Shown piece by piece: positions 25,430-63,780 of a DNA stretch of 64,000 nucleotides. The position numbers and the translations under genes were made by a program. Location: positions 18,941-82,940 of the forward strand of contig FR884184.1 in the NCBI GenBank assembly GCA_000435515.1, given 5' to 3'. Position 1 is the stretch's first letter; each line of letters begins with the position of its first letter. The notes beneath the pieces were generated by a model. It saw nothing but the letters and a program-made list of their open reading frames with translations. It was not told where the DNA came from and ran no database searches. The stretch is from Firmicutes bacterium CAG:582 (GTDB lineage: Bacteria > Bacillota_I > Bacilli_A > RF39 > UBA660).

Positions 25430-27562
25430 ATGAAGAAAACGACAATACTTATAATAGTAGTTTTATTTATGGTAATAGGATATGCAGCATATAATACAAC
25501 AATAAATATATATGGAAATGGAAAGTTAGCAGAAAACCTAAGTGATTTTAAAGTATATCTATCTAATTTAAAAGTAAACGGAAAAGAAGTAAGTGGAATA
25601 AATAATACAAAAGATGAATTTACAATAAATGAAATAAATGGAGATATAAGTGTAGATATAGTAAATGATTCAACAGAATATGATACAAAAGCTTATTTAG
25701 ATTGTGATGTAGATAACACCTGGGATTTTGATTATACTGGAGGTGAACAAACTTTTACTGCACCAATTACTGGAACATATAAATTAGAGGTTTGGGGAGC
25801 TCAAGGTGGATCGGGTTCTTTTAATAATTATTCAAATGATAAAGCTGGTTATGGCGGATATTCACTTGGATTAATTTCTATCAATTCGTCTTCAAAAATA
25901 TATATAAATGTTGGCGGGGCTGGTGGCGTTGTAAATAGCATAAATGGAAGTGCTGGTGGTTACAATGGTGGTGGAAATGGAGAAGCTACCTGTGAAGGTT
26001 TTAAATACCCTGGAGGAGGAGGCGGCGGAGGTGCAACACATATTTCTGGTACATCAGGAATTCTTCCAACTCTATCTAATAAAATTGATAATATCATGAT
26101 CGTCGCAGGTGGAGGCGGAGGTGCTGGATTATATAATGGTGGTTACAATCAAGGTGGAGGATATGCGGGTTCTGGTGGTGGATTTGTTGGCGGGGACGCA
26201 ACTACTACTAACCTTAGGCCTATCATCGGTGGAACACAAACAACTGGTTATAGTTTTGGTCTAGGAGAAACTTCCACTGCATGTCACTATGCAGTCGATG
26301 GCAACTGGGGTAATGGCGGCGGAGGTGGAGGCTTCTATGGCGGTTTTGCTTCAAGTTATACAACTGGTACTTATACCAATGGCGGTGGTGCCGGAGGTTC
26401 GGGCTATATAGGTAATCCGCTTCTAACAGAGAAAAGTATGTATTGTTACAATTGTACTGAGTCAAATGAAATATCAATCAAAACAGTATCAACCACATGC
26501 GTAAATTCAAATCCAACAGAAAATTGTGCTAAGTTAGGAAATGGATATGCACGTATTACCTTAATATCATCTCCTACAAGTATAACAACAGATAAAGTAA
26601 CTATTTCTGCTCAAGAAAGTACTAGCCAAAATCTAAAAAATGTAACTGGTAAAACATTAACTTGTAAACTAAAGGTTAATAAGATATCAAGAACGGAAAA
26701 GAAAGAATACACAGGACCAACAGAATGGACATTTGATTATACAGGAGGAGAACAAACATTTACTGCACCAATCACAGGAACATATAAGTTAGAGGCTTGG
26801 GGAGCCCAAGGTGGTAGTGGTATAAATACTAATCAAGGAAGTACAAATTATGTTAGAAATGGCGGCTTTGGCGGATATTCTAGTGGAGAAATTAGTATTT
26901 TAAAAAACAGCGTCCTTTATATAAATATTGGTGGTCAAGGAGAAGATGGAACCTCTACTCAAGATATAGGAGTAAAGTTTTCTGGAGGATATAACGGTGG
27001 AGGTAATGGCTTATATTATTCTGGAGGTGGAGGAGCAACTCACATTGCTACTAAATCTGGAATACTATCATCTCTACATAATTCTATTAATTACATTTTG
27101 ATTGTTTCCGGTGGAGGTGGAGGAACGTCTGCTCATTATTTAGGAGGTGGCTACTGCATTGGTGGCTCTGGTGGCGGAATTCAAGGTCAAGCCGGCTATA
27201 ATGGTGATAGCACTACCTATTTAGAAAATGGTAGTTCTCAAACAAATGGATTTTCCTTTGGAAAAGGAGAAGATTCACAAAATCCTTCGAGTGGATGCGC
27301 TACTGCTGGCGGCGGAGGTGGTTTTTATGGCGGGAAGTCTCCAACTAATTTCTCAACTTCGTGGAATTCCTGCTCCGGTGGAGGATCTGGATACATAGGT
27401 AATACTTTATTAAGCAAAAAAGGCATGTATTGTTATAATTGTACTGAATCAAGTGAAATATCAACAAAGACTATTTCAACTACATGTACAAGTGCAACAC
27501 CAACAGTAAACTGTTCAAAACAAGGTAATGGATACGCACGTATTACTTTAATATCGTATTAG
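25430..27562 (+). CDS. secreted glycine-rich-domain protein with internal tandem duplication (two modules of about 300 aa)
   Basis: Signal peptide. Module starts W(D/T)FDYTGGEQTFTAPITGTYKLE(V/A)WGAQGGSG are repeated at about residues 100 and 430. Each module ends MYCYNCTES.EIS.KT.STTC....PT.NC.K.GNGYARITLIS. Reminiscent of the Gly_rich domain family (ALK/LTK-like). Confidence 0.7.
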   Translation: MKKTTILIIVVLFMVIGYAAYNTTINIYGNGKLAENLSDFKVYLSNLKVNGKEVSGINNTKDEFTINEINGDISVDIVNDSTEYDTKAYLDCDVDNTWDFDYTGGEQTFTAPITGTYKLEVWGAQGGSGSFNNYSNDKAGYGGYSLGLISINSSSKIYINVGGAGGVVNSINGSAGGYNGGGNGEATCEGFKYPGGGGGGGATHISGTSGILPTLSNKIDNIMIVAGGGGGAGLYNGGYNQGGGYAGSGGGFVGGDATTTNLRPIIGGTQTTGYSFGLGETSTACHYAVDGNWGNGGGGGGFYGGFASSYTTGTYTNGGGAGGSGYIGNPLLTEKSMYCYNCTESNEISIKTVSTTCVNSNPTENCAKLGNGYARITLISSPTSITTDKVTISAQESTSQNLKNVTGKTLTCKLKVNKISRTEKKEYTGPTEWTFDYTGGEQTFTAPITGTYKLEAWGAQGGSGINTNQGSTNYVRNGGFGGYSSGEISILKNSVLYINIGGQGEDGTSTQDIGVKFSGGYNGGGNGLYYSGGGGATHIATKSGILSSLHNSINYILIVSGGGGGTSAHYLGGGYCIGGSGGGIQGQAGYNGDSTTYLENGSSQTNGFSFGKGEDSQNPSSGCATAGGGGGFYGGKSPTNFSTSWNSCSGGGSGYIGNTLLSKKGMYCYNCTESSEISTKTISTTCTSATPTVNCSKQGNGYARITLISY

Positions 27563-53686: not shown

Positions 53687-53715
53687 AAACGTTGAATTTA
53701 ACTCAACGTTTTTTT
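53687..53715. terminator. bidirectional terminator with the same aacgttga/tcaacgtt stem; the stop codon of paralog C lies in the loop
   Basis: aaaacgttga-atttaac-tcaacgttttttt. Serves gpsA (+) and paralog C (-). Confidence 0.6.
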
Positions 53716-56700
53716 ATTCTCTTTTTTTTCAGCTAATGCTGCAGTATCAGTAAAATGATTCATTTTGCTAATTATATTTTCTTTTACAAGTTTAATCGCA
53801 TCCACTAAAATTTTACATAGTTCCATACTATCCATATTGAAATGTTTGGCTTCCTCGTCTAAACTCATAGAACCATCTTTGTTTATAACAAATTCATTTA
53901 AAAGAAAGTATTCATATCTTTTAGGAAGATTAAGATTTAAAATTAAATCTTTTGTGATTATATGACTTGATTTTATTTCGGATAAATACTCATGAATATA
54001 CTCTTTTATGTTATCAAATGAAGGTCCTTCAGCTATAACTAAATTATTTTGTGTTTCTTGTTTTGTTTGTTTCGTTTTGTGTTTCAAATAAATTAGTAGA
54101 TTACTAGTAAAATACGCATATGCTGGTAAATCGTGCCTGTACTTAAGCGTGCTTTTTATTTCAAATATATATTTTTCTTCATTGACTTTTGTTATTGTTG
54201 TAAATTCTTCAAAATACTTTTTGCCTTGATTTGCTGATTTATACGCATTTGTTAACTCTTCATCAGTAATACCATATTTTTTATAATAGTCATTTAAAGT
54301 TTTACAATAATCAAGTTTTCCTTTATTACTTTTACTATTTTCTTTCTCTATTTCTTTTTTTACAAAATTTGTTATAGTATTATTCAATTTTAAGCCATCT
54401 ACACCCTTGCCACTTCTGATTCTATGTATACATATTGATTCTGGAATATCTTGCATAAGATAATGAAAATCTTTCTTATTTAAGTTCGCTATAGATTTTT
54501 TAAAAGTAAATATATGTTTATTTTCAGCTTCTTCAACAATATTCATCGTTTTATAAAAGTAATCATGGCGAAATGGTATAGATGCTAAAGATAAATATAA
54601 ATCTTCCATGTCTTCATCATCAAAACCTAACGATTTATAATAATCATTTAAAGTTTTATAATCATTAATGATTTCCATTCTGCTTGTCTTTGGAGAATGA
54701 AAATCAATATATCTTTTAATGTTTTCTGTTAGATTAAGATTTTCTATTGATTTATTATTTTTAACTCTGCATCTATATAATTTTACAAGTATAGTTTTAT
54801 TATAATATTTGTAATTTCTTTTATCATTTGTATCTATTCTTCTAACGAATGTAAAAATATGTTTCTTATCTTTTGTTTCAGTAACATTTATAGTTTCAGA
54901 AAATATATCTTTTTCTCGTTTAGTTAAGTTTTTATAGACTTCTTCTAAATCTTCATCATCAAATCCTATTGCTTTGATAAAACCGTTAAGTGTTTTATAT
55001 TTTTTTATTGATATTGTAGGTGTTGTTTTAACTCTTTCACCAGCTTTTTTTATAGAAGGAGGCAATTTTATATTATCTACACCTTTGCCCTTTTTAATTC
55101 GAAACTTACATAATGATATTGGAATGTCTTTTGTTAAATAATCATGGTCTTTTTGACATAGATCAGCGGCTGGTTCTTTAAAAATAAACATATGTTTTTC
55201 CTCTTCAATTATATTAAAAAGTCTATAAAAGCAATCGTACCGTATTGGATTTTCGTCTAAAGATGAATATAAATTTTCCATGTCTTCATCATCAAATCCT
55301 AAAGCGTTATAATAGCCATTTAAATGTATATAATTTTCTATTTTAGGAGTATTGTTATCTCTTATAGAATTAGTTCTTAAATGATTTTTAACGTTCTTGG
55401 ATACTTCAATATTATCAACTGATTTGTTATTCCTTAATCTACCTCTATATAAACGTATAATAACACTTTGAGTATAGTATTGATAATTTAGTTGGTCATG
55501 ATTTTGAGTTATTCTTTTTGTAAAAGTGAATGTATGTTTCTTTTCTGCATCTTCCGTAACAATAATACATTTATTAAATCTTTCTTTTTCTTTTGCTGAT
55601 AGTTCGTTGTACATATTTTCTAGGTCTTCATCATCAAAACCTAGTGATTTACAGTATTCATTAAACGTATCAAAATTCTTTATTCCTTTTTCATTGTTTG
55701 GCTTATTTTCAGTTAAATCTTTAGATGGAGAAAAATTAACGTCTTTTTTTTCAACAGAATCAAATGTATTACTTTTTTGAGGAAGTGTGATGTCTTTTGA
55801 CTTAGCTGGTGTTTTCTTAACTTTTATAGGTTGAATTACTTCTTCATTTTTCTTTTCTGAAATTTCTTTTTCTACTTCTTGTGGTTGTTCTACTATTTTA
55901 ATTATTTTAGGCATAGTTTTATTTGTCGTTTCAGCTAAAATTTTACCTATTCCGCTTCTTTCACTTCTAGTAAGATCAAATATCATAGCTTTTTCTTTAT
56001 AGGATAGTTTGGCATCTTTTATTTCATTAAATTCGTTGTCATACTTTTTCTTTATTAAGGCACATTGTCTTTCGCTTAAAGAACGATATGCATTTAAAAA
56101 TTCTAATGCAGAATATCCTTTATCTTTATAGAATTTTATTAAATTGAATGTTTTTTCTTTTTTTAGTCTGTTATTTCTTTTAATTTTTTCAATTGCTTGT
56201 AATTTCTTTTCTTGCAGTTTTTTTATTTGAAAATCTATGTTATTATCTCCAATTAAAACAGAATTAATGATTGCTTCATCACCTTCGGCAACGGGAATTA
56301 ACGGAGATTTTGCTGAGGAATAATTAAATCCATAATATTTTTGTAAAGTATATTTTGTTTTATCATCATAAAGATTCAAAGCCTCGATTAACTTAGATCT
56401 TGGATATCCTCTTTTTTCTAGATCTAACATCAGCATCGAAGGTATTTTGTTTGTAACTTTTTTAACGCTTTTCATTATATTAACTTCACTTTTCAGACGT
56501 CTAATGGTTAGTAATAAGCTTTTATATATATCGTCAGTAGACACTTCGAATAATTTTTCTATATCCTTAAAGCTCATTTTTCTTCGATTTATACCATAAG
56601 AATATATAAAAATTTTTCTTTGCTCCTCTGGTAATCTAATAATTATGTTTTCTAACTTATCTATTTGAAGGTCATAGGCAGTACATATCTTCCTTTGCAT

Positions 56701-56964
56701 TAAACCTTCTTCTTTTTTAAAAAAGGAGTCTACATTAATGTGTTTGTTTTTTAAATTTTTTATGCATAGTACATCTATTTCAATTAAAAGAGATGCTAAA
56801 GTAAATATTTCGTTTTCCTTTTTAGTGAGTTTAACTTCATTTTTGTTATCATAATTTATTCCATATTTCTTTTGCACTATAATTTTTACAAAGTCTTCTT
56901 CGTATTTCATTATTAATTTAAAAGTTTCTTCGTCTATTTTAAAATTTGTCCACACATTTTCCAT
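53698..56964 (-). CDS. large paralog C (1088 aa): multi-HTH repeat protein with five tandem modules of about 113 aa
   Basis: N-terminus MENVWTNFKIDEETFKLIMKYEEDFV...DVLCIKNLK is paralogous to A. LPEEQRKIFIYSYGINRRKMSFKDIEKLFEVSTDDIYKSLLLTIRRLK is r4-like. C-terminal GSMSLDEEAKHFNMDSMELCKILVDAIKLVKENI parallels the A C-terminus. Ends ...KKTLS (A ends ...KKTLN). Confidence 0.7.
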   Translation of the reverse strand: MENVWTNFKIDEETFKLIMKYEEDFVKIIVQKKYGINYDNKNEVKLTKKENEIFTLASLLIEIDVLCIKNLKNKHINVDSFFKKEEGLMQRKICTAYDLQIDKLENIIIRLPEEQRKIFIYSYGINRRKMSFKDIEKLFEVSTDDIYKSLLLTIRRLKSEVNIMKSVKKVTNKIPSMLMLDLEKRGYPRSKLIEALNLYDDKTKYTLQKYYGFNYSSAKSPLIPVAEGDEAIINSVLIGDNNIDFQIKKLQEKKLQAIEKIKRNNRLKKEKTFNLIKFYKDKGYSALEFLNAYRSLSERQCALIKKKYDNEFNEIKDAKLSYKEKAMIFDLTRSERSGIGKILAETTNKTMPKIIKIVEQPQEVEKEISEKKNEEVIQPIKVKKTPAKSKDITLPQKSNTFDSVEKKDVNFSPSKDLTENKPNNEKGIKNFDTFNEYCKSLGFDDEDLENMYNELSAKEKERFNKCIIVTEDAEKKHTFTFTKRITQNHDQLNYQYYTQSVIIRLYRGRLRNNKSVDNIEVSKNVKNHLRTNSIRDNNTPKIENYIHLNGYYNALGFDDEDMENLYSSLDENPIRYDCFYRLFNIIEEEKHMFIFKEPAADLCQKDHDYLTKDIPISLCKFRIKKGKGVDNIKLPPSIKKAGERVKTTPTISIKKYKTLNGFIKAIGFDDEDLEEVYKNLTKREKDIFSETINVTETKDKKHIFTFVRRIDTNDKRNYKYYNKTILVKLYRCRVKNNKSIENLNLTENIKRYIDFHSPKTSRMEIINDYKTLNDYYKSLGFDDEDMEDLYLSLASIPFRHDYFYKTMNIVEEAENKHIFTFKKSIANLNKKDFHYLMQDIPESICIHRIRSGKGVDGLKLNNTITNFVKKEIEKENSKSNKGKLDYCKTLNDYYKKYGITDEELTNAYKSANQGKKYFEEFTTITKVNEEKYIFEIKSTLKYRHDLPAYAYFTSNLLIYLKHKTKQTKQETQNNLVIAEGPSFDNIKEYIHEYLSEIKSSHIITKDLILNLNLPKRYEYFLLNEFVINKDGSMSLDEEAKHFNMDSMELCKILVDAIKLVKENIISKMNHFTDTAALAEKKENKKTLS
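53965..55677 (-). repeat. array of five tandem coding modules of about 339 bp (type A, B, A, B, A') inside paralog C
   Basis: Modules begin (F/Y).T(F/L)N.Y(Y/C)K.LGFDDED(L/M)E.(L/M)Y. A-type modules contain KKHIFTF...Y(R/K)..L..LYR.R..NNKS. B-type modules contain RYD.FY....I.EE...H.F.FK...A.L..KD..YL..DIP.S.C..RI..GKGVD. Confidence 0.6.
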
Positions 56965-57075: not shown

Positions 57076-57750
57076 TTATTTGTTTTTAATTATGTCATTA
57101 AATATAAATGACACACATAAAAGACCAGCAACGCTTGGAACTAAATTGGCTGTTCCTAACATATTTATTTGTTTTGGAACTTCTGTTGAAGATACCACAT
57201 ATATTTTTTTATTGATATGAGCTTTTCTTACTTTATTTCTTAATAATCTTGCAATTGGATCGTTGTTGGTTTTATCTAAAGTTGTAATTTCTAATTTTGT
57301 AGGATCTATTTTTTTTGCTGTTCCCATAGAAGATATTAGCTTATATGAATAATGTATACTATTTTCCATTAAAGCAAATTTTACGTCTAATGTATCACAG
57401 GCATCTATTATGTAATCAAAGTTTTGGTTTAAAAGATTTCTTAGATTTTCTTTATTTAGCTTTTCATTAATCGTTTGAATATTGATGTTTGGATTTATTA
57501 ATAAAGCTCTTTTTTTTGCTTCATCTACTTTATACTTTCCAATGTTAGTTGAATCAGTCATTAGTTGTCTATTCAAGTTGGATAAATCGATGATATCAAA
57601 ATCAACTATAGTTATATCAAAAAATCCATTTCTTATAAGTGCTTCTAGGGCGTAACTTCCTACTCCGCCTACTCCAATAAGTAAAATTTTTTTTCTTTCA
57701 ATTTCTTTTAGTTTTTCTTCACCAATAAGACCAATTAGTCTTTCAAACAT
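57076..57750 (-). CDS. tcdA: ThiF/MoeB-family E1-like enzyme, probable tRNA threonylcarbamoyladenosine dehydratase
   Basis: ILLIGVGGVGSYALEALIRNG Rossmann motif, DFDIIDLSNLNRQ. 224 aa. Confidence 0.7.
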   Translation of the reverse strand: MFERLIGLIGEEKLKEIERKKILLIGVGGVGSYALEALIRNGFFDITIVDFDIIDLSNLNRQLMTDSTNIGKYKVDEAKKRALLINPNINIQTINEKLNKENLRNLLNQNFDYIIDACDTLDVKFALMENSIHYSYKLISSMGTAKKIDPTKLEITTLDKTNNDPIARLLRNKVRKAHINKKIYVVSSTEVPKQINMLGTANLVPSVAGLLCVSFIFNDIIKNK

Positions 57751-57781
57751 AATATCACCTTTCTTGCAAATAAAAAGCCTA

Positions 57782-57940
57782 AGAAAAGCCAGTGTGATAA
57801 AAGCCCGCTCTCACGAGGTGGGCATCACATGACTCGAATTAGGATCCCTAGTCAATGACTAGGTCTTCAACACAACAAGCCAATTAGATTCCCAATAATC
57901 ACAATTAGTCGGTTTTATGTAATAGCCTTCCTTAGGTAAT
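57782..57940 (-). ncRNA. candidate structured small RNA of about 160 nt, GC-rich island with closing stem and terminal hairpin (6S-like?)
   Basis: Minus-strand 5' CCUAAGGAAGGC pairs with 3' GCUUUUCUUAGG, followed by a U5 tail. Internal UGUGAU/AUCACA and UGGG/CCCA pairings. Apical hairpin CCUAGUC-AUU-GACUAGG. GC content is far above the flanks. Lies between two minus-strand genes. Confidence 0.4.
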
Positions 57941-57978
57941 TTAACTATATCATATATCTAGTACTTAGTAAATATTAT

Positions 57979-58359
57979 TTACATATATTTACATGCTTGT
58001 GTTAGCAATTTACCCATTTTATTTTCTAGTTTTTCATTTATTTCATCGACTATTTCAACGGTTTCTTGGTCAAGTTTAAAATATTCATCTATGGTAATGT
58101 AAATGTCTTCACTTTCATGAAGCATATAGTATGTAATCATATATTCTAACAATAAAATGCTTATTTCATATGGTAAATATGCAGATAAAGTCATTATTTT
58201 TTGATGTACTCCATTTTGATAGAAAACAGCCATTCTAGGGACGTTTTTATTGCCATTTCTAGTTATAGTAAAACCATTTTCTCTTATAATATCAAATATA
58301 CCTCCTATATTGTTTTTACAAGCCAAACTAATTTTTTCGATAATTTCTTCTTTTTCCAT
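57979..58359 (-). CDS. hypothetical protein (126 aa) downstream of the HerA-like ATPase
   Basis: ORF with GGTGAG SD. No recognisable family. Same strand as the ATPase, 53 nt downstream. Confidence 0.45.
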   Translation of the reverse strand: MEKEEIIEKISLACKNNIGGIFDIIRENGFTITRNGNKNVPRMAVFYQNGVHQKIMTLSAYLPYEISILLLEYMITYYMLHESEDIYITIDEYFKLDQETVEIVDEINEKLENKMGKLLTQACKYM

Positions 58360-58412
58360 AATTTTCTCACCTTTGCTGTATTATAATAAATTCAAAAGAA
58401 AAAAGCAATATT

Positions 58413-60179
58413 TTATTGCTTTTGAACGGGTTTCCAACGGAATAATACATCACAGTTAGAAGAATATGGTGCCGGATTTGGCATATCCATTTTTACGATT
58501 ACAGGTATTTTAAATGCTGAACCAAAGGCCACCATAGTACCACTTTGCAAACTTGTAAGTTTTTCAATAATATCTCCACTTATATTTGGAAGCATTTTAT
58601 TAATGTAATCTAAGTCTCTAGGATGAGTCATTTTTAAAATACAGAAATTACTTGTTTGGGCAATAACAGTTTCTGATATTTCAACTGGACGTTGACTTAC
58701 TAAGTCAAGCATAACTCCGTATTTTCTTCCTTCTTTAGCTATACGTTCAAAGATATTATATCCTAAAAGAAAGTGGTCATTATCGTTAACTACATATCTA
58801 TGAGCCTCTTCTATAAACAAATGAAATGGAATAGCAGCACGTACTCTTCTCTTCTTAGCAAAATCAAAAATCATTTTAGAAAATATTTTTACAATAGTTT
58901 TAGCTAAGTTATCATCAACATCTTCAAGGTTTATATTAATTATTTGACTACGTCTATTATTATGTATTATTAAGGATGAAATATAGTTGTCTATTGTTAT
59001 ATATTCTTTGAATGAGAAAAACTTTCTATTAGATGAGTTATTCAATGAATGTAATCTAACTTGCATAATAACAGCATTGTCTTGCATAATTCTATTTCCT
59101 AAGAAACCATCTCCGATTAATGTAAATGATAAGGCTCTTTCAAGATCATCTAAAGTGTAAAAAGCATCTGTTGGTACATCTATTTTGCTTTCTAATTCAT
59201 CATCTATAAATTTAAGTAAATATTCATTTATAAGTACTGATTCTCCAAACTCACCATTACGGTCTATTCCAAAACATTCACTGAATTTACGTGTATAACC
59301 AATTCCTTGAATATCTGTATTAACATTAAACTCTGGAGTTGAACAATCATTTATTATTGTGAATATATCATTTTTTTTACCTGCAGCATTTTGATTTGAA
59401 AATAACACTGACATTATAGCTTTCGCTATTAAATGATTCTTTAATTTTTTTGTTTCTTCGTCATCTTTAGAAAATAATTTTGCAAGTTTTAACATTCGTT
59501 CTACTATTGTATATTGATGATGATTATCTGCTTGTAAAAGTAAACAAATGTCATCAATGGTTAGTAAAAATACAGGAATATTTAATTGAACATCATCCGG
59601 ATCTATTGGGTTTGATGTTATAAATTTATATTGATAATTTGGATTTATTTGATTTAGCACTTTGAAAGCATTTTTATATTCACCATATGCATCAAATATA
59701 AATAAATTAGCGTTGTATGATAAAAATTGTTTATTTAAAAAGATATTTTGGACAATTCTTGCAACTGAACAACTTTTACCAGAACCGGTATTACCAAATA
59801 TAGCAGCATGGTTTGAAAAGAACTGATTAATGTCAATGTAGACATTTTTTTCTGGATAAATTGCCGAATGACCAAGATATAAACTTTTTTCGTCATCTTT
59901 TCCAAGTATAATATTTAATTCATCATCATTTATAACTCGCACCTTACTATCAAGTGTAGGTTTTTTTATAGTACCAGCAATGAAACGATTTTCAACAAAT
60001 TGACCAAGCAAGTCGATGTGTACAGTTTCAGTATCAACTTTCTTAACTTCACCTAATAACTTATCTTTGTCATTTTCAAAAACAACATGCAAATTCATTA
60101 AATTTGGTACAACCATGTTACTTTTATTGATATCTACAACGGCTGTAATATCATCTATATATCGTATTTTTCCAAACAT
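58413..60179 (-). CDS. HerA/FtsK-superfamily (DUF87-type) ATPase with N-terminal HAS-barrel
   Basis: Walker A AIFGNTGSGKSCS. About 320-aa helical insert. Walker B / sensor HLFIEEAHRYV and EGRKYGVMLDLVSQRP are typical of HerA/DUF87. N-terminal beta-barrel-like region. Confidence 0.7.
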   Translation of the reverse strand: MFGKIRYIDDITAVVDINKSNMVVPNLMNLHVVFENDKDKLLGEVKKVDTETVHIDLLGQFVENRFIAGTIKKPTLDSKVRVINDDELNIILGKDDEKSLYLGHSAIYPEKNVYIDINQFFSNHAAIFGNTGSGKSCSVARIVQNIFLNKQFLSYNANLFIFDAYGEYKNAFKVLNQINPNYQYKFITSNPIDPDDVQLNIPVFLLTIDDICLLLQADNHHQYTIVERMLKLAKLFSKDDEETKKLKNHLIAKAIMSVLFSNQNAAGKKNDIFTIINDCSTPEFNVNTDIQGIGYTRKFSECFGIDRNGEFGESVLINEYLLKFIDDELESKIDVPTDAFYTLDDLERALSFTLIGDGFLGNRIMQDNAVIMQVRLHSLNNSSNRKFFSFKEYITIDNYISSLIIHNNRRSQIININLEDVDDNLAKTIVKIFSKMIFDFAKKRRVRAAIPFHLFIEEAHRYVVNDNDHFLLGYNIFERIAKEGRKYGVMLDLVSQRPVEISETVIAQTSNFCILKMTHPRDLDYINKMLPNISGDIIEKLTSLQSGTMVAFGSAFKIPVIVKMDMPNPAPYSSNCDVLFRWKPVQKQ

Positions 60180-60222: not shown

Positions 60223-61464
60223 TTATTCAATTCCATCATTTACTTCAATAAATGAAAAGTCTGACTCATTAAACTCAATATTTGGGTTATTTGTATAAAT
60301 AGTAAATAAAACATCATCTTTTTCGACGTCTTCACCTACATATTTATTAAGCATAATTCCGACTGTGTAATCAATTTCATCATCTAAAGTTTTTTTTGAA
60401 GCTCCCAGTTTAGCAGCAAGTTCACCTGCTCCATAAGCGTCTATTCTAGTAATTATTCCGCTTTTTTTAGAATGAACCTTTATTTTGTTATCAGCTACAT
60501 GAACATTTCTTAGACTTCCTCCTTGAGCATGAACGAATTCATAAAATTTATTTAAAGCACGTTTAGATTCAATTGCATATTTTGCTTGTTTATATCCTTC
60601 TTCTAAACCAGAAGAGAAAGTCATATCATATAAATTAGCAACGATTTCGATACAAGCGTCATATAAAGGACATTTTTTACCATTTAAAACATTCATTGCT
60701 TCACATATTTCTAATGAATTTCCGATTGCGTATGAAAGAGGTGCACTCATATCTCCAATAACTGTTCTGACGTTTCTATTATAGGCTTCACCGATTTCAA
60801 CTAAATACTTACTTAATTTTTCAGCGTCTTCACGAGTTTTCATTAAAGCTCCACTTCCAACTTTAACATCAATTAAAATATTTTTTGCACCTAAAGCTAA
60901 TTTTTTTGACATGATGCTTGATGCAATTAAAGGAATTGATTCAGTTGTTCCAGTAACATCTCTAAGAGCATATATAACTTTGTCAAGCGGTGTTAAATTT
61001 CTTGTTTGAGAAACAACTGCAAAACCAGTTTCTTCAACTTGTTTTATAAATTCTTCTTCTGATAAAGCAACATTAAAACCAGGAATGCTTTCTAGTTTAT
61101 CAATCGTTCCACCAGTTATTCCTAATCCTCTTCCACTCATCTTGGCCATTTTCATGCCTAATGATGCACACATTGGGCCAATTATTATAGTAGTAGTGTC
61201 TCCTATTCCTCCAGTTGAATGCTTATCAACTAAATTTTCTATCTTTTCACCCAAATGAAGCTCATCTCCACTTTTTAAGAATATATCTGTCAAAGCAAGA
61301 GTCTCAGTAAAATTCATACCATTGATCACTATCGCCATTAAAAGAGCACTCATTTGATAATCAGGTATTTCCTTGTTTAAGTATCCATTAAATGCAAATG
61401 AAAGTTCATCATAACTTAAACTTAAACCATTTTTCTTTCTTGTTATAATATCTAAAATATTCAT
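60223..61464 (-). CDS. pdp: pyrimidine-nucleoside (thymidine) phosphorylase
   Basis: HSTGGIGDTTT, MSGRGLGITGGTIDKLESIPGF. Start taken at MNILDIITRK with AGGTGA SD; the track extension to 61527 has no SD. Confidence 0.9.
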   Translation of the reverse strand: MNILDIITRKKNGLSLSYDELSFAFNGYLNKEIPDYQMSALLMAIVINGMNFTETLALTDIFLKSGDELHLGEKIENLVDKHSTGGIGDTTTIIIGPMCASLGMKMAKMSGRGLGITGGTIDKLESIPGFNVALSEEEFIKQVEETGFAVVSQTRNLTPLDKVIYALRDVTGTTESIPLIASSIMSKKLALGAKNILIDVKVGSGALMKTREDAEKLSKYLVEIGEAYNRNVRTVIGDMSAPLSYAIGNSLEICEAMNVLNGKKCPLYDACIEIVANLYDMTFSSGLEEGYKQAKYAIESKRALNKFYEFVHAQGGSLRNVHVADNKIKVHSKKSGIITRIDAYGAGELAAKLGASKKTLDDEIDYTVGIMLNKYVGEDVEKDDVLFTIYTNNPNIEFNESDFSFIEVNDGIE

Positions 61465-61520
61465 CGTATCACCTACTATAAAAAGTATAACACAAAAAAA
61501 CACTTTATTAAAAGTGCTTT

Positions 61521-62654
61521 TTACCACATATCAGTAGTTATTCCGTCCCTGTTTGGATAGATATCACTCATCTCAATCACATACGTTAAATTTGGGTCGT
61601 TAACAATTCCTTTATATCTTTCATATGTATATACTTTTAATTTTGGTGGTAGGGATTCGGCTGTATAAATTGTAGTATCCGATATTCCAATAATTAAAGC
61701 TGCATGTCCGTTTCTTGCAATAAAATCACCAACTTTGTAATTACCTCTTTTCATATATTCTTGAGTAATTTTTTTGTGTGGACCAAGATCGGAAAGGTCG
61801 TCATTGAATTGTTTGTAATCTCCAGCACCTACATCCCCAGTTTCAAAACCGCCATTATACATTGCCCATGTAACAAAACCAGAACAGGTAAAACCATTAG
61901 CTTTATATCTATTAACAAAATTGTCATATAATTTGCATCCTCACATTTTCGGTCCAGTTTTCGTACTTTTTACAATGTTTTTATATTTACTTTTACTTAG
62001 ATATAGTCCTTTATGATAATATCTACCTTCTCCATCGATATATGGACGATATCCATGACCATTAAGACGCCCATTTTCATTAAAATAACCAATTGTGTAT
62101 GGAAATTCCAAAGTTAAAAATCTTGCAGCAGCTAACACTCCACCACGCGAACCTTCTCCCATTTCTTTTACACGAGATTCTAATATTTTATCTAAAAGTA
62201 TAGCCTCATCTTCTGTATATCTTTCACATGGTAAATATGATTTATTTTTATTTAAAGTTGGTGGAACAATTAAATCGGTTACTTGTATTTGATAATTTTT
62301 AGTGTTACCATCGGTTAAAGTTGCTGTTATAGTTGATGTACCAACACCAATGCCATATAAGATACCATTCTCGATTTTAACAACGTTTTCGTTATCGCTG
62401 GTTAAATTAACGGTTTTATCAAAATCGTCAGGATAGTCAAAAATAAAATCTATTTTTTTCTTACCATTCAACGCTAAAAAATAAGTTTCTAATTTATCAA
62501 GAGAAGACGAAAACGTTCCCTTAAGTTTTTTTTCTTCTTTTTTGGTTATTATTAACTCACGACTGCTAGTCTTTTTCTTATCAAATGGGGAAATTAAAAT
62601 TATATTTAGAGTTATGCACATAATAATAAATATTATAATACCTCTTTTTTTCAT
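61521..62654 (-). pseudogene. NlpC/P60-family cell-wall peptidase with signal peptide and Big_2 domain, interrupted by an in-frame TGA at 61941..61943
   Basis: Upstream ORF (signal peptide, Ig-like VKIENGILYGIGVGTSTITATL) ends ...TGPKM-TGA. The frame continues GCKLYDNFVNRYKANGFTCSGFVTWAMYNGG (catalytic Cys motif), then ...GHAALIIG (His). Single stop, no frameshift. Confidence 0.6.
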
Positions 62655-62721: not shown

Positions 62722-63780
62722 TTAATACTTCTTTCTTAAAACTTTTTGAAGATGAGACTCTAATTCGTAAAGCTCATTTAAATGTGTTTTATGAAAATCT
62801 TTATATGTGTCCACAGCTTCGATGCAGCCATAATTTCTTCTTGCTAGTTTTATCTCTTTATCAAACAATGATTCCGGATAGTCATAATTTTCACTTATTT
62901 TTTGGATGCCAAATTCATCACATATATGATTATTTTGTTTTATATAAGGCATAAAACATATATCACGTTCATCTCTTAGTAATTTAGAAAATCCGCAATC
63001 TTGTGGTAAAAACAAATCACGAGTAGCTTGAGTATAAATTTCACCATTATAGGCATCAAGCATAAGTGTTGCTCCATTAAAGTTTGCACGTGATATAAGA
63101 TGATTTCCTTCTCTGATACTGCCTAAAGAAGTAATTTTTTTCATATGTTCATTTCTTATATTTGTTGCCGAAACAGCTTTGACAACTTTTTCACGCATAC
63201 CACTTGAAAGTTTAAATGAACTTAATACTTCCATAATTTTCATTATTTGTTCTTTTTGCTCTTTACTTTCCAATATATTAAAGAAACCTAAACATACATC
63301 ACTTTCATATCCCATCATATAATAAATTTTTTGTAATAACATAGAAATATGACGGCATACACCATGACCATTTAACGCAAGAGGGCCCATTATTTCTTTT
63401 TCAATTAAGTATGAGTTTACTTCATAGTGGTCAAGTTTATCATACGAAAAAATACCATAATCATACATGAAATAAATCAAAAAATATATATCCAAAGGAT
63501 TTTTTACATTCATATCACTTGCTAAATTTATTAAACTTTTAATATATTCCTCATATATTTCCTTTATAGCTACAATATCATGATCTTTTTGCACTATTTT
63601 TGTTTCTAAATCATCTTTCAAAAATAGATATGGCACAAATGATAAAAGAAATACAGCAAGTCCTGGTGCGATGTAAATACTACCTAATAAAGAAGCCCCT
63701 TCTATTGCTATGGTTGAGCCTGTAATTTTTTTCTTAAGTTCTAGTAATTCTTCATAAGAATAATCATCTATTTTTTTCAT
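62722..63780 (-). CDS. hypothetical protein (possible transglutaminase-like Cys-protease fold, weak)
   Basis: 352-aa ORF. The GHGVCRHISMLL segment is reminiscent of the transglutaminase-like catalytic Cys context. N-terminal hydrophobic segment. Confidence 0.45.
   Translation of the reverse strand: MKKIDDYSYEELLELKKKITGSTIAIEGASLLGSIYIAPGLAVFLLSFVPYLFLKDDLETKIVQKDHDIVAIKEIYEEYIKSLINLASDMNVKNPLDIYFLIYFMYDYGIFSYDKLDHYEVNSYLIEKEIMGPLALNGHGVCRHISMLLQKIYYMMGYESDVCLGFFNILESKEQKEQIMKIMEVLSSFKLSSGMREKVVKAVSATNIRNEHMKKITSLGSIREGNHLISRANFNGATLMLDAYNGEIYTQATRDLFLPQDCGFSKLLRDERDICFMPYIKQNNHICDEFGIQKISENYDYPESLFDKEIKLARRNYGCIEAVDTYKDFHKTHLNELYELESHLQKVLRKKY

What the first reader, a model, noticed from the sequence alone, without database searches (positions are those of the whole stretch)
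57979..60179. HerA/FtsK-superfamily ATPase plus small unknown gene inserted between pdp and tcdA
The 588-aa product has an N-terminal HAS-barrel-like region, Walker A AIFGNTGSGKSCS, a large helical insertion, and the HerA/DUF87-type Walker B/sensor (FIEEAHRY, EGRKYGVMLDLVSQRP). HerA-like ATPases in bacteria are characteristically partners in two-gene modules with a nuclease or effector. Here the gene is followed 53 nt downstream by a 126-aa protein of no recognisable family. The pair sits among housekeeping genes (pdp, tcdA). The accompanying protein is far too small to be NurA or Sir2, so this may be an uncharacterised HerA-associated module.
Basis: partly seen in the sequence, partly recalled or inferred. 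Interest (0 to 1): 0.55.

Follow-up and report, generated by a model that had tools for sequence, protein, structure and literature searches.

The report
Lone conserved HerA ATPase, unrelated small neighbour
The HerA-type ring ATPase is real, but it is an old, stand-alone core gene of small-genome gut Bacilli, and the 126-aa gene beside it is a recent genus-specific arrival in a variable slot, so the two are probably not a partnered module.

Summary
Both ORFs and all quoted motifs are present as described. The 588-aa protein is a clear HerA. Its nearest relatives with a known context are the HerA subunits of SIR2-HerA and HerA-DUF4297 anti-phage systems, at about 30% identity.

- Orthologues in about 160 related loci never have SIR2, DUF4297 or NurA next to them, and no neighbour is shared by all of them.
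- The gene is inherited vertically. It is the most constrained gene at the locus (dN/dS 0.011-0.017, dS about 1, like its neighbours).
- The older local order is herA - 6S RNA (ssrS) - tcdA.
- The 126-aa gene sits in a variable slot between herA and ssrS. It occurs only in loci whose HerA is at least 90% identical and evolves about ten times faster.
- It is predicted to have an ImmA/IrrE-like fold without the HExxH metal site.

Best reading: a stand-alone, housekeeping-type HerA motor plus an unrelated lineage-specific gene. The lone, core-like HerA clade is a modestly interesting new variant.

The parts
58413..60179 (-). herA: 588-aa stand-alone HerA-type P-loop ATPase. It has an N-terminal barrel region, Walker A at residues 129-136, a helical insertion at about 200-400, Walker B EEAH at 457-460, and the AKEGRKYG and SQRP motifs.
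   Evidence: ORF. Pfam DUF87 1.8e-25. PADLOC HerA PDLC04102 4e-107 over the full length. Best solved-structure match is 9C1M, the HerA of HerA-DUF4297, at 5e-48. The motifs are invariant in 78 orthologues. dN/dS is 0.011-0.017.
58394..58423 (-). A/U-rich hairpin (10-bp stem, 3-nt loop) overlapping the herA stop codon and followed by a U-tract. It is terminator-like and would separate herA from the small gene.
   Evidence: Fold: -8.1 kcal/mol, z -2.4, with equivalent hairpins in L001 and L012. Sequence read. Function is inferred. The consensus scan does not list it, because the stem has only 2 G-C pairs.
57979..58359 (-). 126-aa lineage-restricted gene. The predicted fold is ImmA/IrrE-like (zincin) but lacks the HExxH metal site, so it is probably non-catalytic.
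   Evidence: ORF. Only 9 representatives among 1.84 billion proteins. AlphaFold2 model with pLDDT 85.9. Foldseek top hits are phage IrrE-like proteins at E 1.8e-3 with probability 1.0 and PDB IrrE 3DTI at E 0.18. Helix 64-80 reads EISILLLEYMITYYMLH.
57772..57941 (-). ssrS: 6S RNA gene, immediately upstream of tcdA. A promoter-like site with an extended -10 lies at 57972-57944.
   Evidence: Rfam 6S match of 43.5 bits against a gathering score of 46.4, E 2.3e-7, full model length. Orthologous copies score above gathering in L044, L020, L060 and L046. nhmmer finds the gene in 58 of 86 related loci at the same position. Promoter-like site.
60223..61527 (-). pdp: pyrimidine-nucleoside phosphorylase, the upstream neighbour. 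The likely true start gives 413 aa, ending at 61464. It is not part of any HerA system.
   Evidence: Pfam Glycos_trans_3N, Glycos_transf_3 and PYNP_C. It lies upstream of herA in about half of the orthologous loci and is replaced by gatB, surface proteins or ftsY-ylxM in others.
57076..57750 (-). tcdA-like ThiF-family gene, the downstream anchor of the conserved herA - ssrS - tcdA order.
   Evidence: Pfam ThiF 5e-40. Synteny.

Best explanation
The 588-aa gene encodes a stand-alone HerA-type hexameric P-loop motor. It is a vertically inherited, very strongly constrained core gene of a large clade of low-G+C, small-genome, uncultured gut and rumen Bacilli. The window matches Firmicutes bacterium CAG:582. 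The protein most likely uses ATP to translocate along or unwind DNA in a housekeeping transaction such as end processing, repair or segregation. It does not look like the motor half of a two-gene defence system. The clade is sister to the SIR2-associated HerAs but has no SIR2, DUF4297 or NurA partner nearby. The 126-aa gene downstream is an unrelated, genus-restricted, fast-evolving gene. It encodes a probably non-catalytic ImmA/IrrE-like domain and arrived in the variable slot between herA and the 6S RNA gene. It is probably transcribed on its own. Shown here: gene identity, intact motifs, lack of a conserved partner, vertical descent and constraint, restriction of the small gene, its predicted fold, and the missing HExxH. 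Inferred: hexamer formation, DNA as substrate, a housekeeping role, and independent transcription and function of the small gene.
For: HerA identity and intact catalytic motifs.

No conserved partner. In 80 species-level loci the gene downstream of herA is absent or variable, for example a PP-loop TtcA-like gene, radical SAM, SDR, NUDIX, Fic or pilin-like genes. The upstream gene also varies: pdp, gatB or surface proteins. tblastn with three SIR2 partners finds nothing in the window or in 86 loci.

A metagenome scan gives a clean split. All relatives at 37-79% identity come from contigs of 23-31% G+C and lack SIR2. All 10 relatives at 27-31% identity come from contigs of 45-63% G+C and have SIR2 directly upstream.

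Other members of the lone clade sit in housekeeping contexts: ftsY-ylxM-herA-ffh in at least 15 loci and herA-sepF-divIVA in at least 13.

Vertical descent and constraint. herA dS is about 1.0, like its neighbours (0.6-1.05). Its dN/dS of 0.011-0.017 is the lowest of six genes. HerA identity exceeds that of pdp and ThiF at every level of divergence.

Small gene. The family has 9 representatives in 1.84 billion proteins. It is 30-41% identical where HerA is 90-93% identical. dN/dS is 0.12-0.22. HMM and profile-profile comparisons find no homology to other slot ORFs. A terminator-like hairpin lies at the herA stop codon.

The ancestral order herA-ssrS-tcdA is supported.
Against: Every known member of the small family lies 53-55 nt downstream of a 588-aa HerA on the same strand. 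A genus-specific functional link therefore cannot be excluded.

The best-matching PADLOC model, PDLC04102, is the same model that genuine SIR2-linked HerAs match best. A defence role with an unlinked partner, or with none, remains possible. One defence HerA has been reported to nick DNA on its own (PMC13434337).

No whole genome could be examined, so a partner encoded elsewhere is untested.

The housekeeping function itself is inferred from evolutionary behaviour only. The neighbouring genes share no common functional theme.
Confidence: 0.68

Rival explanations
1. One reading: within the CAG-582 genus, HerA has recruited the 126-aa ImmA/IrrE-like protein as a new adaptor, sensor or regulator, and the two act as a genus-specific module.
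For: The two genes are always adjacent, with the same strand and 53-55 nt spacing, in every locus that carries the small gene. This holds even where the small protein is only 30-37% identical. The small gene is under purifying selection. ImmA/IrrE-like proteins regulate some defence operons; this last point is from my own knowledge and was not tested here.
Against: The gene has a single origin in one genus with conserved synteny, so adjacency is confounded with descent. HerA works without it in more than 100 other species. The two evolve at rates about ten-fold apart. A terminator-like hairpin and a -10-like TATAAT lie between the genes. The HExxH motif is absent and there is no HTH partner. 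In L011, L170 and L172 the small gene overlaps the downstream PP-loop gene by 23 nt, which suggests translational coupling with that gene and not with herA.
Confidence: 0.12
2. The lone HerA is still an anti-phage defence protein. It would act either alone, through an intrinsic nickase or helicase activity, or with an effector encoded elsewhere in the genome.
For: Its closest relatives with known context are defence HerAs: SIR2-HerA on Enterococcus, Listeria and Lactobacillus plasmids at about 30% identity, and HerA-DUF4297 as the best solved structure. It shares its best PADLOC model with SIR2-linked HerAs. A type III SIR2-HerA HerA nicks DNA by itself (PMC13434337).
Against: The gene behaves like a core gene. 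Its position is syntenic across at least 110 species. Its dN/dS is about 0.01, lower than that of pdp, mgsA, gpsA and tcdA. It sits in housekeeping contexts in three synteny classes. The pattern scan found no copies on viral contigs. NCBIfam anti-phage HerA equivalog scores are far below their cut-offs, at 184 against 850.
Confidence: 0.17
3. pdp, which lies where SIR2 lies in SIR2-HerA operons, is the functional partner of HerA. It would be a nucleoside-cleaving effector analogous to the NADase.
For: pdp lies 43-50 nt upstream on the same strand in about half of the orthologous loci, even where pdp identity is down to 49%.
Against: pdp has the complete three-domain housekeeping architecture. 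It is absent upstream of herA in many loci, where gatB, surface proteins or ftsY-ylxM take its place. The arrangement looks like inherited gene order.
Confidence: 0.03

Closest known systems
HerA subunit of SIR2-HerA (Nezha-type) anti-phage systems
   Same: HerA architecture over nearly the whole length. Identity is about 28-31% to SIR2-linked HerAs of Firmicutes plasmids. Both match PADLOC model PDLC04102 best. Walker A and B, EGRK and SQRP motifs and a DD pair at residues 209-210 are invariant in the joint alignment.
   Different: No SIR2 gene next to it in the window or in about 160 related loci. The first 50-100 residues do not align to the SIR2-linked proteins in tblastn. It is chromosomal, syntenic and core-like, with dN/dS about 0.01.
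HerA of the HerA-DUF4297 defence system (PDB 9C1M, 8XAU)
   Same: Best solved-structure sequence match, at E 5e-48. The entry was identified through the bioRxiv paper 10.1101/2024.10.24.620088.
   Different: No DUF4297/Cap4-like nuclease neighbour. The adjacent genes are pdp and a 126-aa ImmA/IrrE-like protein.
Archaeal and Deinococcus-Thermus HerA-NurA end-resection complex
   Same: HerA family membership, with Sulfolobus HerA 4D2I at E 2e-35. It provides a precedent for a housekeeping HerA.
   Different: No NurA gene nearby. A weak NurA N-terminal match of the small protein (E 0.16) vanished when a broader profile was used. NCBIfam repair-HerA equivalog scores are far below their cut-offs.
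FtsK/SpoIIIE DNA translocases
   Same: Same superfamily of ring ATPases, with a sub-threshold Pfam FtsK_SpoIIIE match. Some clade members sit next to sepF-divIVA and carry long P/Q/N-rich disordered tails.
   Different: No membrane anchor and no gamma domain were detected. The HerA-type domain organisation is different. Whether these genomes lack FtsK could not be tested.
ImmA/IrrE (peptidase M78) domain, for the 126-aa protein
   Same: Predicted fold and order of secondary-structure elements. The Foldseek top hits are phage IrrE-like proteins and Deinococcus IrrE 3DTI.
   Different: No HExxH motif in the equivalent helix, no Pfam or PHROG sequence match, and no adjacent HTH repressor gene.

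Membership tests
HerA family (FtsK-HerA superfamily) | HerA/DUF87 central ATPase domain above the curated threshold | tested here: met
   Pfam PF01935 scores 90.8 bits against a cut-off of 23.2. Fifteen PADLOC HerA models match, the best at 357 bits over the full length.
HerA family (FtsK-HerA superfamily) | Intact Walker A, Walker B and conserved arginine/sensor motifs | tested here: met
   GNTGSGKS, EEAHRY, AKEGRKYG and SQRP are invariant or nearly so in 78 orthologues, and also in the alignment with SIR2-linked HerAs.
HerA family (FtsK-HerA superfamily) | N-terminal HAS-barrel and hexameric ring assembly | not tested
   PADLOC model PDLC04102 aligns from residue 2, which is consistent with a barrel. 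No structure of HerA was predicted, and oligomeric state cannot be tested with these tools.
SIR2-HerA defence system | SIR2 NADase gene adjacent to herA, usually overlapping it upstream | tested here: not met
   tblastn with three SIR2 partners gives no hit in the 64-kb window or in 86 loci. None is found in 70 low-G+C metagenome loci, whereas all 10 relatives at 27-31% identity have one.
SIR2-HerA defence system | Patchy, island-like or mobile distribution typical of defence genes | tested here: not met
   Conserved synteny in at least 110 species, dS equal to that of the neighbours, and dN/dS of 0.011-0.017.
HerA-DUF4297 defence system | DUF4297/Cap4-like nuclease gene adjacent | tested here: not met
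   The neighbours are pdp and the 126-aa protein. DUF4297 is not among the 25 most frequent of the 70 Pfam families matched by 126 slot ORFs (only those 25 are listed) or among the 14 PADLOC families they match. It also does not match the window neighbours.
HerA-NurA repair complex | NurA nuclease gene in an operon with herA | tested here: not met
   No NurA among the neighbours. The weak NurA match of the small protein (E 0.16) was lost with the broader profile.
ImmA/IrrE (peptidase M78), 126-aa protein | Zincin-like fold: three-stranded sheet followed by the active-site helix | tested here: inconclusive
   The model has pLDDT 85.9. The best Foldseek hits are IrrE-like proteins but are weak: E 1.8e-3 with TM 0.53-0.57, and E 0.18 in PDB.
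ImmA/IrrE (peptidase M78), 126-aa protein | HExxH zinc-binding motif in that helix | tested here: not met
   Helix 64-80 reads EISILLLEYMITYYMLH. No histidine pair is conserved in 11 family members.
ImmA/IrrE (peptidase M78), 126-aa protein | Sequence-profile match to the family, and an adjacent HTH repressor | tested here: not met
   No Pfam or PHROG match even at relaxed E-values. No HTH gene is adjacent.
6S RNA (Rfam RF00013) | Covariance-model score at or above the gathering threshold | tested here: inconclusive
   The window copy scores 43.5 bits against 46.4, at E 2.3e-7 over the full model. Orthologous copies score 50.3-56.5 bits, and the gene is found in 58 of 86 loci.

The most novel reading that the evidence does not exclude
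A whole clade of HerA motors, sister to the SIR2-associated defence HerAs, has become a stand-alone, near-essential housekeeping enzyme in Mollicutes-like, small-genome Bacilli. Alternatively, it never was a defence protein. It might take over DNA end-processing or chromosome-clearing work that AddAB/RecBCD or FtsK do elsewhere. In that case it would mark either the housekeeping ancestor from which defence HerAs were recruited or a defence ATPase turned to cellular use.
Probability: 0.3. Interest if true: 0.65.

Novelty: new variant of a known kind. Interest (0 to 1): 0.4.

Why it matters
In bacteria, HerA ATPases are now studied almost only as halves of two-gene anti-phage systems. This study finds a large clade that lacks any linked effector. 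It is inherited vertically in reduced genomes and is more constrained than neighbouring metabolic genes. That points to an unexplored cellular role for HerA in uncultured gut Bacilli. It also gives a natural comparison for asking how defence HerAs relate to housekeeping ones. For annotation, HerA profile matches from defence databases should not be read as defence without the partner gene. The specific two-gene module that was proposed should not be pursued as a defence candidate on present evidence.

Tried and rejected
1. NurA remnant. The 5-sequence profile of the small protein gave NurA 2YGK as the top solved-structure hit (E 0.16), aligning an invariant ID pair to the stretch FVAID of NurA. 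With the 9-sequence profile the hit disappeared, so I treat it as chance.

2. First structure model of the small protein, from 5 sequences: pLDDT 57, unusable. A model from 9 sequences reached 85.9.

3. Sequence-level family assignment of the small protein against Pfam, PADLOC, NCBIfam and PHROGs gave nothing significant.

4. Homology of the small protein to other genes occupying the slot: none by HMM or profile-profile comparison.

5. Variable effector cassette. I asked whether the slot genes are defence effectors. Pfam and PADLOC show mostly ordinary genes: PP-loop, radical SAM, SDR, NUDIX and pilin-like, with only 2 Fic.

6. Recent horizontal spread as the reason HerA looks so conserved: rejected, because its dS equals that of its neighbours.

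7. Phage origin. The pattern scans found no relatives of either protein on viral contigs. Only three weak partial HerA matches turned up in phage records.

8. The 430-aa representative of the small protein's database cluster is unrelated in sequence. It is a clustering artefact and not a longer isoform.

9. Literature searches for a HerA role in Mollicutes or RF39 found nothing relevant.

11. A search with a distant clade member returned no organism names, so the taxonomic breadth beyond uncultured Bacilli stays unresolved.
Full report
**Observation.** The window holds a 588-aa ORF at 58413..60179 (-) and a 126-aa ORF at 57979..58359 (-), 53 nt apart (sequence). All three quoted motifs are present. 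The large protein matches Pfam DUF87/HerA (1.8e-25) and 15 PADLOC HerA models. The best, PDLC04102, covers residues 2-582 at E 4e-107. NCBIfam HerA equivalogs are matched far below their cut-offs, 184 bits against 850. The small protein matches nothing in Pfam, PADLOC, NCBIfam or PHROGs. The flanking genes are pdp and a ThiF-family tcdA-like gene. An identical HerA is on record from Firmicutes bacterium CAG:582 and on contigs up to 1.42 Mb.

**Is the pair co-conserved?** The small protein has very few relatives: 7 by the word-indexed search and 9 cluster representatives among 1.84 billion proteins by a full HMMER profile search.
- In close relatives the order pdp - herA(588) - small - tcdA is identical.
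- A scan of one genome per species found at least 110 species with a HerA orthologue. I examined 80 of these loci, at 55-99% identity, all from uncultured Bacilli, Mollicutes or Tenericutes genome bins.
- The small gene is detectable only where HerA is at least 90% identical.
- In L018, L023, L042, L044, L055, L059 and L060, herA and tcdA are only 242-321 nt apart, with no ORF between them.
- Elsewhere the slot holds unrelated genes. Among 126 slot ORFs, Pfam finds PP-loop (9), radical SAM (7), pilin-like N_methyl (5), NUDIX (4), SDR (3) and Fic (2). The listed families include no SIR2, DUF4297 or NurA.
- The upstream neighbour also varies: pdp, gatB or surface proteins.
- The small family shows no homology to the other slot ORFs.

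**What actually lies in the gap.** The 228-nt spacer upstream of tcdA contains a 6S RNA gene at 57772-57941 (-). It scores 43.5 bits, just under the gathering score of 46.4, at E 2.3e-7 over the full model. Orthologous copies exceed the gathering score in four loci. A sequence profile finds the gene in 58 of 86 loci, usually 15-25 nt upstream of tcdA and in several loci directly after herA. The older order is therefore herA - ssrS - tcdA, with a variable slot between herA and ssrS. In L011, L170 and L172 the small gene is overlapped by 23 nt by a TtcA-like PP-loop gene. That gene occupies the slot alone in several more distant loci. The small gene therefore looks like a later arrival.

**Evolutionary behaviour.** Against three congeneric genomes, HerA is 97-98% identical. 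The other genes are pdp 94-95%, MgsA 94-96%, GpsA 86-91%, ThiF 85-88%, the small protein 63-68%, and the large repeat protein 47-62%.
- Synonymous divergence of herA (dS about 1.0) equals that of its neighbours (0.6-1.05), so HerA is not a recent transfer.
- Its dN/dS is 0.011-0.017, the lowest of the six genes. The small gene has 0.12-0.22, the highest.
- At every level of divergence HerA identity exceeds that of pdp and ThiF. Examples are 86 against 66 and 66, and 69 against 53 and 52.
- Where HerA is 90-93% identical the small protein is only 35-41% identical.
- Catalytic motifs are invariant in 78 orthologues, and the helical insertion is well conserved.

**Relationship to known HerAs.** The best solved relative is 9C1M (E 5e-48). 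It is the HerA of the HerA-DUF4297 system. The closest annotated relatives, at about 30% identity, are on Enterococcus, Listeria and Lactobacillus plasmids. Each lies directly behind a SIR2 gene. These SIR2-linked proteins match the same PADLOC model best, at 514-516 bits against 339-357 for the lone clade.

A metagenome scan gives a clean split. Every relative at 37-79% identity comes from a contig of 23-31% G+C and lacks SIR2. All ten relatives at 27-31% identity come from contigs of 45-63% G+C and have SIR2 immediately upstream. Within the lone clade two further synteny classes appear: ftsY - ylxM - herA - ffh (at least 15 loci) and herA - sepF - divIVA (at least 13 loci). Many of these proteins carry 30-250-aa P/Q/N-rich tails that look disordered. 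The window protein has no such tail. No copy was found on viral contigs.

**The small protein.**
- With nine sequences AlphaFold2 gives a confident model, with pLDDT 85.9 and pTM 0.82.
- The Foldseek top hits in the viral structure library are IrrE or IrrE-N-terminal-like proteins, at E 1.8e-3, probability 1.0 and TM 0.53-0.57. SprT-like zincins follow.
- The top PDB hit is Deinococcus IrrE 3DTI, at E 0.18.
- The helix that would carry HExxH reads EISILLLEYMITYYMLH, and no histidine pair is conserved.
- I read this as an ImmA/IrrE-like fold that has lost its metal site. The assignment is tentative because the scores are weak and two fold libraries were unavailable.
- An early NurA lead was chance.
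- A 10-bp A/U-rich hairpin with a U-tract overlaps the herA stop codon. A TATAAT lies 20 nt before the small gene's ribosome-binding site. Separate transcription is plausible but not shown.

**Interpretation.** The best-supported reading has two parts. The first is a stand-alone, core, housekeeping-type HerA motor. The second is an unrelated, genus-restricted gene in a variable slot. The mechanism is inferred from the family: an ATP-driven hexameric ring acting on DNA. The cellular process remains unknown, because the three synteny classes share no functional theme.

The rivals are as follows.
- A genus-specific HerA-adaptor pair (0.12). Adjacency is universal within the small family, but this is confounded with descent.
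- A defence HerA acting alone or with an unlinked effector (0.17). One defence HerA nicks DNA by itself (PMC13434337).
- Pdp as partner (0.03).

**Verdict.** What remains is a modestly interesting new variant: a lone HerA clade, sister to the SIR2-linked defence HerAs, that behaves like a core gene. Interest 0.4.

Noticed in passing
window 57772-57941 (-): An unannotated 6S RNA (ssrS) gene lies between the 126-aa gene and tcdA. It scores just below the Rfam gathering score here and above it in orthologous loci. It is conserved directly upstream of tcdA in 58 of 86 related loci.
   Followed up: yes
window 61521-62654 (-), stop codon at 61941-61943: A 377-aa gene that is intact in relatives is split here into ORFs of 237 and 113 aa. 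The cause is a single in-frame TGA at a position where relatives have Trp (TGG). This could be a nonsense mutation, a pseudogene or a sequencing error. Other long ORFs are intact, so recoding of TGA seems unlikely.
   Followed up: partly
window 53698-56964 (-): A 1088-aa protein with no Pfam match carries at least four copies of a roughly 112-aa repeat marked by LGFDDED(L/M)E. It is the fastest-evolving gene at the locus, at 47-62% identity, and its length ranges from 758 to 1252 aa in congeners.
   Followed up: partly
L097-L111 and L119-L155 (metagenome loci): More distant lone HerAs sit between ftsY-ylxM and ffh, or directly upstream of sepF-divIVA. Many carry long P/Q/N-rich tails that look disordered, and several of these end in acidic residues.
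   Followed up: partly
L084:7890-8960, L086:3030-4100, L068:5204-5929: Fic-domain genes lie next to the lone herA in three loci (downstream in L084 and L086, upstream in L068). A divergent Xre-type HTH gene lies upstream of herA in L084-L086. A Fic gene also sits near the SIR2-HerA pair on the Enterococcus plasmid. These may simply be typical contents of a variable region.
   Followed up: no
protein collection, cluster of the 126-aa protein (P0134, P0135): The exact 126-aa protein is on 210 contigs, but its 90% identity cluster is represented by an unrelated 430-aa protein. That is why the first homologue search did not return it. This is a database clustering artefact.
   Followed up: yes
window 25430-27562 (+): A 710-aa protein gives a strong match to the ALK/LTK glycine-rich domain (PF12810, E 2e-68). 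The same domain appears in two slot ORFs of related loci.
   Followed up: no
window 62722-63780 (-): A 352-aa ORF is only 32% identical to its positional counterpart in a congener whose HerA is 98% identical. It is another very fast-evolving gene near this locus. Its only Pfam hit is a weak RuvC_1 match at E 0.003.
   Followed up: no
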